From NCBI RefSeq assembly GCF_057098645.1, contig NZ_CM169472.1: DNA of 64,000 nucleotides; one strand, given 5' to 3'. This document shows, piece after piece, positions 42,717-43,757 of this stretch. The translations under genes were made by a program, and so were the position numbers. Below the pieces are notes generated by a model. That model searched no databases. It had not been told where the DNA came from and saw only the letters and a list, made by a program, of their open reading frames with translations. Position 1 is the stretch's first letter. Every line of letters starts with the position of its first letter.

Positions 42717-43757
42717 ATGAGTATCGATGCACTACGATGGGCTAAAAAGGTGAAAACCGGCAGTTCATCCAGTAAGTCAGTATTGACCTGGCTTGCTGAT
42801 ATGTGCGGTGCCGATTTGTGTGCATACCCGTCTGTATCTGCACTGGCAGAAGTAACGGAACTGAACAAAAAGACTGTGCAGGACAGCTTACGACACCTGA
42901 TGGAGATTGGGTTAATTGTTGATACCGGTGAGAGAAAAGGCAGAACAAAGCAAATTGTGGTGTACCGACTTATCGGTGTAGAAGAAAGTGTTGCCGAGCC
43001 TGAATACACCCAAAAACGGGAGTCTTTAAAGGTGGGTAAAATTGGTGCTGTTAATAAAAACAGTACCGAAAATGGTTATGTTTCAGCACAAAACAGACCC
43101 AAAAACAGAACTCTTAGCTGCATGGAAAATAACCAAAGACACCCAAATTTTCCATCAAAGACACCCAAAAACGGATCACGGAACCCAAAGGAACCCAAAG
43201 ATCTAAACCCCACACATAACGCACGCGAGAGTGCTCCGACCAGTGAGCAGGAAGTTTTGTCGTTACAGGCAGCCCCCCCTGTATTCCTGTATGGCCTGAG
43301 CGAACCCATCGGAAAATTCCCGATGAGCGATAGCTGGTATCCGTCACGGGATTTTCGACGACGGGCTGCGTTGTGGGGGATGGCTTTGCCGGAGACAGAA
43401 TTTACACCTGCTGAACTTGCCGCCTTCCGGGACTACTGGGCAGCGGAGGGGAAAGTGTTTACGCAGATTCAGTGGGAGCAGAAATTCGCCCGTCACGTAA
43501 ATCACGTCAGGGCGCAGGTTAAACCAGTCAGCAAAGGGGTAAACCATGCAGCAGCACCAGGTGGCACCGCATCACGGGCAGTTCAGGAAATTCGGGCAGC
43601 ACGTGAGCAGTGGGAACGTGAAAACGGATTTATCAGCGACGGAAACGGCCTGGAAGCTGTGGGAACTCATGGGGGAGGTTTATTCGAACCGCTGGACCCA
43701 GAAGAACGGGGCCGCACCATCGAAGCTCTGGATTGCACAGATTGGCGCGATGACTGA
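42717..43757 (+). CDS. replication initiation protein (O-like)
   Basis: Product from ATG 42717: MSIDALRWAKKVKTGSSSSKSVLTWLADMCG... (winged-helix-like N-domain); position upstream of the P-like gene. Confidence 0.65.
   Translation: MSIDALRWAKKVKTGSSSSKSVLTWLADMCGADLCAYPSVSALAEVTELNKKTVQDSLRHLMEIGLIVDTGERKGRTKQIVVYRLIGVEESVAEPEYTQKRESLKVGKIGAVNKNSTENGYVSAQNRPKNRTLSCMENNQRHPNFPSKTPKNGSRNPKEPKDLNPTHNARESAPTSEQEVLSLQAAPPVFLYGLSEPIGKFPMSDSWYPSRDFRRRAALWGMALPETEFTPAELAAFRDYWAAEGKVFTQIQWEQKFARHVNHVRAQVKPVSKGVNHAAAPGGTASRAVQEIRAAREQWERENGFISDGNGLEAVGTHGGGLFEPLDPEERGRTIEALDCTDWRDD

What the first reader, a model, noticed from the sequence alone, without database searches (positions are those of the whole stretch)
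43546..43757. About 210-bp overlap between the O-like and P-like replication frames
Both frames are open across this interval, and the P-like similarity to lambda P begins upstream of the O-like stop. Either the two genes truly overlap, or the O-like protein has a frameshifted extension, or the P-like gene starts at an internal ATG (43669 or 43750).
Basis: seen in the sequence. Interest (0 to 1): 0.2.

Follow-up and report, generated by a model that had tools for sequence, protein, structure and literature searches.

The report
Conserved 212-base overlap of two replication genes
The 212-base overlap is real and ancient: the end of a prophage replication-initiator gene and the start of its lambda-P-type helicase-loader gene are read from the same DNA in two frames, and most public annotations cut 41 to 81 residues off the loader to avoid it.

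Summary
The O-like initiator ORF ends at 43757 and the P-like ORF is open from ATG 43546, in the +1 frame. That gives 212 shared bases.

The best reading is a true out-of-frame overlap, with P starting at ATG 43546 (221 aa).

- **Conservation:** 19 loci from E. coli, Citrobacter, Klebsiella, Phytobacter, Prodigiosinella, Pectobacterium and Vibrio phages keep the +1 relation. Their overlap is 191-215 nt, and exactly 212 nt in nine.
- **Start signals:** The first ATG has the best Shine-Dalgarno pairing. The Met codons at 43669 and 43750 lack one, and both are Leu in some Vibrio phages.
- **Selection:** P codons upstream of 43669 are under purifying selection. The O frame is kept stop-free beyond what the P protein would allow (combined p about 5e-11).
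- **Structure:** The 221-aa product is collinear with lambda P and shares its four-part plan. A start at 43750 would delete lambda P's functionally required N-terminal part.

Constraint is divided. The 5' part favours an O helix over P's disordered N-terminus. The 3' part favours P's folded domain II over a disordered O tail.

The exact start codon is inferred, not mapped. This is a new variant of a known kind and moderately interesting.

The parts
42717..43757 (+). Initiator gene ('O-like'), 346 aa. It has an N-terminal HTH, a low-complexity linker, a DnaT-type DNA-binding domain (about 43317-43517) and a C-terminal extension of about 80 aa.
   Evidence: The ORF is. PGAP's model in a 99.7% identical relative runs 918..1958, which maps to window 42717..43757. 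Pfam DnaT scores 60.8 bits against a cutoff of 25, and HTH_36 scores 20.7, below its cutoff. It shares 39% identity with the phiV10 primosomal protein over residues 1-261 (E 3e-39), after which only the window protein continues for a further ~57 aa.
43546..44211 (+). Lambda-P-family helicase-loader gene, 221 aa if started at ATG 43546. It has a disordered N-terminus (aa 1-26), domain II (aa ~27-106), domain III (aa ~114-181) and a C-terminal helix (aa 204-217).
   Evidence: Searches give the ORF and the lambda P similarity. Foldseek's best hits are lambda P chains 9oa1_Z, Y and V (E 6e-6 to 4e-5). phrog_109 'P-like helicase loader' covers aa 19-220.
43546..43757 (+). The overlap: 212 nt read in two frames, with P at +1 relative to O.
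   Evidence: Nucleotide diversity here is 0.032-0.048, against 0.063-0.088 in the flanks.
43533..43548 (+). Shine-Dalgarno-like AAAGGGG, a 6-nt spacer and ATG 43546. It lies in the predicted disordered linker of O that follows the DnaT domain.
   Evidence: Anti-SD pairing is -8.0 kcal/mol, the best of seven candidate starts. Relatives carry GGAGGT or GGGGGT 5-8 nt upstream of their first ATG. SD strength exceeds a null that fixes the O protein (Fisher p 0.003). An ATG with an SD at this distance occurs in 10 of 11 lineages.
43569..43622 (+). Block A. The O frame encodes a conserved helix (ASRAVQEIRAAREQWERE) and the P frame encodes its disordered leader (aa 9-25).
   Evidence: Constraint is O-dominant: z = 13.5 for O against 5.2 for P. 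The population pattern over 43549-43617 looks like O coding. The O helix is predicted only at low confidence (pLDDT about 55), and P residues 1-26 have pLDDT below 50.
43648..43728 (+). Block B. The P frame encodes conserved domain II residues 35-61 (AWKLWELMGEVYSNRWTQKNGAAPSKL) and the O frame encodes a predicted disordered Gly-rich, acidic tail.
   Evidence: With the O protein fixed, P similarity between Enterobacterales and Vibrio has z = 18. With P fixed, O similarity is not above a stop-free null (z = -1.4). P pLDDT is 83-92 here, and O residues 108-150 have pLDDT about 40.
43669..43671 (+). Internal ATG (P Met42), the start of the 180-aa database models.
   Evidence: Anti-SD pairing is -4.2. 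It lies inside predicted helix 25-46. The position is Leu in Vibrio phages L011 and L012. P codons 25-41 upstream are under purifying selection.
43750..43752 (+). Internal ATG (P Met69), the RefSeq/PGAP start of the 153-aa model. It overlaps the O stop by 8 nt (ATGACTGA).
   Evidence: Searches show this start in public records. Anti-SD pairing is -3.1 with 16-nt spacing. It corresponds to lambda P residue ~77, in the middle of domain II.
43755..43757 (+). Stop codon (TGA) of the initiator gene.
   Evidence: It sits at the identical position relative to P codons 70/71 in Vibrio phage 1.205.O.

Best explanation
The two genes truly overlap by 212 nt in different frames, and both products are made independently.

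**Shown.** Ribosomes translating the initiator (42717-43757) read through the region in frame 0 and stop at 43757. The overlap falls into two parts with opposite constraint. In the first third, O encodes a conserved helix while P encodes a disordered N-terminal leader, the counterpart of lambda P domain I (the 'N-terminal lasso'). In the last two thirds, P encodes helices 1-3 of its folded domain II while O encodes a predicted disordered tail. That tail's sequence is largely dictated by P, but its reading frame is kept open by selection.

**Inferred.** A second set of ribosomes starts the helicase loader at ATG 43546, using an SD embedded in the initiator's disordered linker, and reads in frame +1 to 44211. 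By homology with lambda P, the 221-aa protein loads the host DnaB helicase at an origin bound by the initiator. The long overlap probably arose when the initiator's C-terminus extended over the pre-existing 5' end of P. The evidence is that the homologous phiV10 pair has a 4-nt junction and an initiator about 57 aa shorter. The 180-, 153- and 140-aa database models are probably truncations made by annotation rules that penalise overlaps.
For: **1. Conservation of the architecture.**
- 19 loci have P at +1 relative to O, with the first ATG 191-215 nt before the O stop. They include Vibrio phages whose P is only about 30% identical.
- They pair with initiators of different N-terminal types: HTH_36, DUF1376, DUF6291, with or without a DnaT domain.

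**2. P is coding upstream of 43669.**
- In 73 unique E. coli-type sequences, O third positions segregate at 53/82 sites where only O is coding. This falls to 2/17 in 43618-43668 and 5/29 in 43669-43754 (p about 1e-5).
- Deep P-frame similarity in 43648-43728 has z = 18 with the O protein held fixed.

**3. O is translated to 43757.** With the P protein fixed, a stop-free O frame has probability 0.0003-0.09 per lineage. Fisher's combined p is 5.5e-11 for 11 loci and 5e-7 for 6 conservative lineages. P wobble diversity is also reduced in the overlap (0.04-0.06 against 0.13).

**4. The start codon.**
- ATG 43546 has the best SD of the candidates.
- GGAGGT or GGGGGT lies upstream of the first ATG in all seven enterobacterial lineages, stronger than the O protein alone would give (p 0.003).
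- An open ATG with an SD 25-40 codons upstream of the conserved block is present in 10 of 11 lineages, where null probabilities are 0.01-0.46.

**5. Homology and structure.**
- Lambda P residues 15-201 align to positions 17-191.
- phiV10-type P proteins, which have a free-standing N-terminus and a 4-nt junction, align from residue 18.
- The AlphaFold model has residues 1-26 disordered and a confident helix at 25-46.
- Foldseek's best hits are full-length lambda P chains.
- In lambda P, domain I is residues 1-29 and domain II is residues ~30-119. Deleting residues 9-85 disrupts the DnaB complex (PMC12661323).
Against: - No direct evidence for the N-terminus exists (no proteomics or initiation-site profiling).
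- P codons 2-24 evolve in the O-coding pattern (O third positions segregate at 12/23 sites, P third positions at 5/23). The leader's amino-acid sequence is therefore not detectably constrained.
- P-frame openness in that stretch is expected from the O protein alone (test A).
- The thresholds used were chosen after seeing the data.
- SD support is weak in the Vibrio lineages (Fisher p 0.24).
- The conserved-looking O tail motif (EER/W..D.D) is fully explained by P conservation plus the need to stay open (z = -1.4). A sequence-specific function of that part of O is not shown.
- RefSeq consistently annotates 153 aa in E. coli and about 180 aa in other genera.
Confidence: 0.8

Rival explanations
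1. P starts at an internal ATG (43669 for 180 aa, or 43750 for 153 aa). The upstream P-frame ORF is then not translated, and the real overlap is 89 or 8 nt.
For: This is what RefSeq/PGAP and many GenBank records annotate. Met42 is conserved in most lineages. ATG 43750 gives a classic ATGACTGA coupling junction. P codons 2-24 show no protein-level constraint.
Against: - P codons 25-41, upstream of 43669, are under purifying selection. They belong to the block conserved between Enterobacterales and Vibrio (z = 18).
- Both Met positions are Leu in Vibrio phages L011 and L012.
- Neither ATG has a usable SD.
- Met42 lies inside helix 25-46, and Met69 follows three helices of domain II.
- The lambda P equivalent, residues 9-85, is needed for the DnaB complex.
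Confidence: 0.05
2. P starts upstream of the folded domain but not at ATG 43546. It would use a non-ATG codon such as GTG 43603 or GTG 43618, so the overlap is about 140-155 nt.
For: P-like constraint begins only around 43618. The leader is disordered. GTG codons exist at 43603 and 43618.
Against: Those GTGs pair weakly with the anti-SD (-4.3 and -4.4) at unsuitable spacing, 13 and 3 nt. No start codon is conserved at these positions in other lineages, whereas the first ATG with its SD is. Lambda P has a comparable 29-residue disordered domain I.
Confidence: 0.1
3. A programmed +1 ribosomal frameshift joins the initiator to P. The loader domains would then be made as an O-P fusion rather than from their own start.
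For: The frame relation (+1) is invariant across the 19 long-overlap loci. Constraint switches from the O frame to the P frame midway, which is what a shift between the two blocks would produce. phrog_15931 matches both proteins, and fused ORFs exist in databases.
Against: - A selected ATG with an SD at the head of the P frame makes a shift unnecessary.
- The spacer between the blocks is variable and carries indels, with no conserved slippery motif seen by inspection.
- +1 shifts are rare.
- The database fusions examined are a deletion chimera (P0081) and a sequence with several frame breaks (P0107), which look like decay or assembly error.
- Lambda and phiV10 make separate proteins.
- The O frame stays open for 45 codons beyond the supposed shift site.
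Confidence: 0.03
4. The overlap is an artefact of this copy: a frameshift mutation or sequencing error lengthened the initiator ORF in a decaying prophage.
For: The prophage is damaged nearby by an IS21-family insertion in ydaT.
Against: The same junction is present in 1,255 of 5,426 complete E. coli genomes and in distant genera and Vibrio phages. The O frame is kept open by selection.
Confidence: 0.01

Closest known systems
Phage lambda O-P replication gene pair
   Same: The initiator gene is followed directly by the P helicase-loader gene. P is homologous (Pfam PF06992, 61.5 bits; lambda P aligned over residues 15-201) and shares the four-part plan of disordered N-terminus, two compact domains and C-terminal helix. 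The initiator gene may also hold origin repeats, as lambda O does.
   Different: Lambda O and P overlap by 4 nt (39582-39585), against 212 nt here. The initiator is not a lambda O homolog by Pfam; it has an HTH region plus a DnaT-type domain.
phiV10 / epsilon15-type pair (PhiV10p43 primosomal protein + PhiV10p44 replication protein P)
   Same: Both genes are homologous to the window pair. The initiators share 39% identity over residues 1-261, and P aligns over residues 18-221.
   Different: The junction is 4 nt, P is in the +2 frame, and the initiator ends 28 aa after the aligned region (which runs to the DnaT domain end) and lacks most of the ~85-aa tail. P's N-terminus is encoded on its own. 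This looks like the non-overlapping state of the same module.
Long out-of-frame overlapping phage genes formed by overprinting (for example lambda Rz/Rz1 and the phiX174 overlaps; cited from general knowledge)
   Same: Two proteins are read from one DNA stretch in different frames. Nucleotide conservation is raised, and ordered segments of one protein pair with disordered segments of the other.
   Different: This is a terminal overlap between two old, homologous replication genes, not a small new gene embedded in an older one. The two products are expected to act in the same complex.

Membership tests
Lambda P helicase loader (Pfam PF06992, Phage_lambda_P) | Sequence match above the family's curated threshold | tested here: met
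   61.5 bits against a cutoff of 26, over residues 56-188. phrog_109 'P-like helicase loader' scores E 8e-63 over residues 19-220.
Lambda P helicase loader (Pfam PF06992, Phage_lambda_P) | Homology to the structurally solved lambda P, including its N-terminal half | tested here: met
   The profile matches 8v9t_V with E 5.9e-15, lambda P residues 15-201. Alignment confidence is low before window residue ~58. hhalign gives 97% probability over residues 58-195.
Lambda P helicase loader (Pfam PF06992, Phage_lambda_P) | Four-part architecture: disordered N-terminus, domain II, domain III, C-terminal helix | tested here: met
   The AlphaFold model (mean pLDDT 78) has residues 1-26 disordered, helices 25-105, helices 114-181 and a helix at 204-217. 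Foldseek's top hits are 9oa1 lambda P chains, and domain III matches 8v9s at TM 0.91. Whole-chain TM is only 0.39-0.48, as expected for flexibly linked domains.
Lambda P helicase loader (Pfam PF06992, Phage_lambda_P) | Binds and loads the host DnaB helicase | not testable with these tools
   Inferred from homology only.
Lambda O initiator family | Sequence match to the lambda O family | tested here: not met
   No lambda-O-type Pfam family was found at E <= 0.01. Only weak PHROG 'replication initiation O-like' hits cover the N-terminal HTH (phrog_391, E 4e-12).
DnaT-domain phage initiator / 'primosomal protein' (phiV10 gp43 type) | DnaT DNA-binding domain, plus full-length similarity to a member | tested here: met
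   PF17948 scores 60.8 bits against a cutoff of 25. NCBIfam DnaT scores 93.5 bits, below its equivalog cutoff of 201. Identity to PhiV10p43 is 39%, E 3e-39.
Functional out-of-frame overlapping gene pair (dual coding) | Both frames open, and conserved as open in relatives | tested here: met
   19 loci across six enterobacterial genera and four Vibrio-phage groups.
Functional out-of-frame overlapping gene pair (dual coding) | Selection on the downstream gene's frame inside the overlap | tested here: met
   z = 18 with the O protein fixed. The population codon-position pattern agrees.
Functional out-of-frame overlapping gene pair (dual coding) | Selection on the upstream gene's frame inside the overlap | tested here: met
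   Frame openness has Fisher p 5.5e-11. Block A constraint is O-dominant (z = 13.5). In block B, however, the O amino-acid sequence is not conserved beyond what P imposes (z = -1.4).
Functional out-of-frame overlapping gene pair (dual coding) | The internal start site is used in vivo | not testable with these tools
   Only computational support exists, from SD and ATG conservation.
Programmed ribosomal frameshift | Conserved slippery site and stimulator at the frame junction | tested here: not met
   Inspection of the aligned lineages shows a variable spacer with indels between the O-dominant and P-dominant blocks, and no shared motif. No formal motif search was run.

The most novel reading that the evidence does not exclude
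The overlap may act as a linkage device. The initiator's C-terminal extension, a conserved helix plus a tail, would be the element that recognises its own P loader. Because it is interleaved with P's N-terminal codons, mosaic recombination cannot separate the two. The unit 'initiator tail + P' then moves as one cassette among unrelated initiator cores (HTH-DnaT, DUF1376-DnaT, HTH only, DUF1376 only, DUF6291). Searches show that pattern. A second, compatible reading is that burying P's start inside a translated gene keeps synthesis of a DnaB-sequestering, potentially toxic loader low relative to the initiator.
Probability: 0.25. Interest if true: 0.6.

Novelty: new variant of a known kind. Interest (0 to 1): 0.45.

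Why it matters
- **Annotation.** A lambda-P-type helicase loader present in about a quarter of complete E. coli genomes (1,255 of 5,426) is annotated mostly as a 153- or 180-aa fragment. Those models lack the equivalent of lambda P domain I and part of domain II. In lambda P, residues 9-85 are needed for the DnaB complex. Vibrio phage record MG592575 (1.205.O) leaves the gene unannotated. Structural or functional work based on the short models would use a truncated protein.
- **Biology.** Verified long out-of-frame overlaps between two conserved genes are uncommon in bacteria and tailed phages. This one is conserved from E. coli prophages to Vibrio phages. It shows a clean division of constraint, ordered against disordered in each half.
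- **Experiments.** Single silent-in-one-frame mutations can test whether the overlap serves expression control, co-inheritance of interacting parts, or neither.

Tried and rejected
- **P-frame openness as evidence.** I tested whether P-frame openness upstream of the conserved block shows that the leader is translated. It does not. Given the O protein, the observed open length equals the null median (test A).
- **The O tail motif.** I tested whether the conserved-looking motif (HG..D.EE(R/W).G..D.D) is selected for its own sequence. Once the null is restricted to stop-free sequences, the O-frame similarity between Enterobacterales and Vibrio is not elevated (z = -1.4). I dropped that claim. An earlier unconditioned test (z = 2.1-2.9) was driven by stop codons in the null.
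- **A broader locus set.** The viral-contig scan returned only 96-100% identical relatives. These served for population analysis but not for deep comparison. The genome-contig scan gave just 7 loci.
- **K-12 Rac YdaU.** It is not detectably related in its tail (E 0.11) and pairs with a DnaC-like YdaV, so it could not serve as a 'tail without P' control.
- **Database O-P fusions.** P0081 and P0107 looked at first like support for a frameshift product. They are a deletion chimera and a multiply frame-broken sequence.
- **A linked O-tail/P structure prediction.** I decided against it. The two segments share nucleotides, so their alignment columns co-vary trivially and could produce false contacts.
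- **Literature.** Searches found no description of this overlap.

Full report
**Observation.** The window holds a Rac/PPompW-type prophage early region in the order dicA, dicC, ydaT, initiator, P, DUF977. The initiator ORF ends with TGA at 43755-43757. A second ORF is open from ATG 43546 to 44211 in the +1 frame. Pfam Phage_lambda_P covers residues 56-188 of the 221-aa ORF, starting at nt 43711. A profile search of solved structures aligns lambda P residues 15-201 with positions 17-191. hhalign pairs residue 58 with lambda P residue 66.

**What the two genes are.** The upstream protein (346 aa from ATG 42717) has an HTH-like N-terminus and a DnaT-type DNA-binding domain (60.8 bits). It is 39% identical over residues 1-261 to the 'primosomal protein' of phage phiV10. 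It gave no Pfam lambda-O hit, so 'O-like' describes its position and presumed role only. The downstream protein is a lambda P family helicase loader.

**Public annotation is inconsistent.**
- PGAP calls a 153-aa P starting at ATG 43750 in every E. coli genome examined. That gives an 8-nt ATGACTGA junction.
- Rac-SA53 uses the same start.
- The PPompW records start at ATG 43789.
- Other genera get models of about 180 aa, starting at the Met42 codon.
- The exact window sequence is deposited in NCBI as 221 aa (60 contigs), 180 aa (at least 999) and 153 aa (at least 999).

Annotation therefore cannot settle the boundary.

**Comparative anatomy.** I collected relatives from phage records, E. coli genomes, viral contigs and one genome per species. 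I located the P-homologous frame and the upstream ORF in each.
- In 19 loci, P is +1 relative to the upstream gene, and the first ATG of the P frame lies 191-215 nt before the upstream stop. The loci come from E. coli, Citrobacter (including phage Chris1), Klebsiella, Phytobacter, Prodigiosinella, two Pectobacterium species and four groups of Vibrio phages.
- Nine loci have exactly 212 nt, including Vibrio phages 1.205.O, D62 and 1.184.A.
- The upstream genes have different N-terminal cores: HTH_36 with DnaT, DUF1376 with DnaT, HTH_36 alone, DUF1376 alone, and DUF6291.
- Two loci differ. phiV10 and YDC107_2 have a short initiator, a 4-nt junction and a P protein with a free-standing N-terminus that aligns to window residues 18-221.
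- Lambda itself has a 4-nt junction.
- Vaitephage is intermediate, with 113 nt of overlap.

**Is P coding upstream of the internal ATGs? Yes.** In 73 unique sequences at least 86% identical to the window, the regions coding for one protein only show the usual excess of third-position variation:

| Region | Measure | Value |
|---|---|---|
| O only | O third-position diversity | 0.113 |
| P only | P third-position diversity | 0.130 |
| O only | O third positions segregating | 53/82 |
| 43618-43668 | O third positions segregating (these are P second positions) | 2/17 (p about 1e-5) |
| 43669-43754 | O third positions segregating | 5/29 (p about 1e-5) |
| 43618-43668 | P third positions segregating | 8/17 |
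| 43669-43754 | P third positions segregating | 14/28 |

At deep divergence I held the O protein fixed and resampled synonymous codons. The P-frame similarity between seven enterobacterial and four Vibrio lineages in 43648-43728 exceeds the null by 18 standard deviations. The Met codons at 43669 and 43750 correspond to Leu in Vibrio phages L011 and L012.

**Is O translated to 43757? Yes.** With the P protein fixed, the chance that the O frame stays stop-free across the overlap is 0.0003-0.09 per lineage. Fisher's combined p is 5.5e-11 for 11 loci, or 5e-7 for six conservative lineages. P wobble diversity is two- to three-fold lower inside the overlap than outside it. The overlap is also the most conserved stretch of the two genes at the nucleotide level.

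**Division of constraint.**
- The 5' part (43549-43617) evolves like O-only coding: O third positions segregate at 12/23 sites and P third positions at 5/23. It holds a conserved O helix, ASRAVQEIRAAREQWERE. There O-frame similarity has z = 13.5 against 5.2 for P.
- The 3' part is P-dominant, with z = 16.2 against 5.3.
- The structure predictions are complementary. P residues 1-26 are disordered, and a confident helical domain starts at residue 25-27 (pLDDT 83-92). O has a well-predicted DnaT domain, a disordered linker that contains P's SD and ATG, a low-confidence helix, and then a disordered tail over P's domain II.

**Two negative results limit the claims.**
- P-frame openness across the leader is expected from the O protein alone (test A).
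- The apparent O tail motif shared with Vibrio phages is explained by P conservation plus the need to avoid stops (z = -1.4).

So the first 24 P codons carry no detectable protein-level constraint. The last 45 O codons carry no detectable sequence-specific constraint beyond remaining open.

**Where does P start?**
- ATG 43546 has the best anti-SD pairing of the seven candidates: -8.0 kcal/mol, from AAAGGGG with a 6-nt spacer.
- All seven enterobacterial lineages have GGAGGT, GGGGGT or a close variant 5-8 nt upstream of their first ATG. This is stronger than synonymous resampling of the O protein gives (Fisher p 0.003).
- An open, SD-equipped ATG 25-40 codons upstream of the conserved block is present in 10 of 11 lineages. 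The null probabilities are 0.01-0.46, and the joint probability is about 1e-10, or 2e-5 for six lineages. The thresholds were chosen post hoc.
- No other start codon is conserved between the first ATG and the folded domain.
- The 221-aa product matches lambda P almost end to end. The lambda P structure paper defines a disordered domain I (residues 1-29, the N-terminal lasso that binds DnaB at the ring breach) and domain II (residues ~30-119, the interface between loader subunits). [quoted passage not shown]
- Met69 corresponds to lambda P residue ~77, and Met42 lies inside helix 1.

**Mechanism, with its status.**
- *Shown computationally:* both frames are maintained by selection, and P's folded domain begins at least about 125 nt before the O stop.
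- *Inferred:* P initiates independently at ATG 43546, inside the initiator's disordered linker.
- *Inferred from the phiV10 comparison:* the initiator's C-terminus was extended over an older P 5' region.
- *Speculative:* the extension is the P-specific adaptor, and the overlap keeps the adaptor and loader together during mosaic exchange; and/or occlusion of the start site limits synthesis of a loader that can sequester DnaB.

**Rivals.**
- Internal ATG starts are contradicted by selection, structure and non-conservation.
- A nearby non-ATG start cannot be excluded without mapping.
- A +1 frameshift fusion would explain the switch of constraint. It is made unnecessary by the selected start signals, has no visible conserved shift site, and is not supported by the database fusions examined.
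- A local mutation artefact is excluded by the distribution.

**Novelty.** Full-text searches found no description of this overlap. The long form exists in some GenBank records, so the ORF itself is not new. What is new is the demonstration that the long overlap is conserved and selected, and that the prevailing reference models are truncated. I rate it a new variant of a known kind, with moderate interest.

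Noticed in passing
window 39624-42258 (IstB ORF 41161-42159): An IS21-family element of about 2.6 kb interrupts the prophage. 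Relatives are collinear with window 38662-39623 and 42259-45750, with a 9-nt overlap at the joint that may be a target duplication. The insertion lies inside the ydaT-family gene, so ORF 42188-42745 is a hybrid or truncated ydaT. The O/P genes are also separated from the dicC/cro-side promoter.
   Followed up: partly
window 43003-43199: Five or six direct repeats of about CAAAGACACCCAAAAAC(G/A)G lie inside the initiator gene's low-complexity linker. GC falls to 0.35-0.41 and the AT skew is strong. This is a candidate iteron array or origin inside the initiator gene, as in lambda, where four iterons lie inside O.
   Followed up: partly
window 44208-44241: The next gene (DUF977) has a second start-codon ambiguity. 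An ATG at 44208 overlaps the P stop (ATGA), whereas PGAP starts the homolog at the position equivalent to 44241. The Pfam match begins at residue 13 of the longer form.
   Followed up: no
PHROGs family phrog_15931 (matched by window 42717-43754 and 43546-44208): One 482-position PHROG of 'unknown function' matches both the initiator (aa 161-345) and P (aa 4-221). It is therefore probably a chimeric family built around fused or frame-broken O-P ORFs. Database examples are P0081 (an in-frame deletion fusing a DUF1376 initiator to P residue ~105) and P0107 (several frame breaks).
   Followed up: partly
L011 (MG592575.1) 2001-2654; L012 (OZ195768.1) 2001-2660: In Vibrio phage 1.205.O the P-family gene is not annotated at all, leaving a gap between 2212 and 2668. 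In the D62-type records only a 3' fragment (2334-2660) is annotated as hypothetical. These proteins may be related to the VdhL loaders described in Vibrionaceae (PMC11087808). That was not tested.
   Followed up: no
L003 (PP818812.1, Actinobacillus phage vB_Apl-pPE4): A phage recorded as infecting Actinobacillus pleuropneumoniae carries a DnaT-domain/P module 92-94% identical in DNA to the E. coli Rac-type module. That is unexpectedly close for such a different host. It may reflect a mislabelled host or contamination.
   Followed up: no
window 42717-42745 (L004 918-946): The ydaT-family gene and the initiator gene also overlap, by 29 nt, in the reference annotation of relatives.
   Followed up: no
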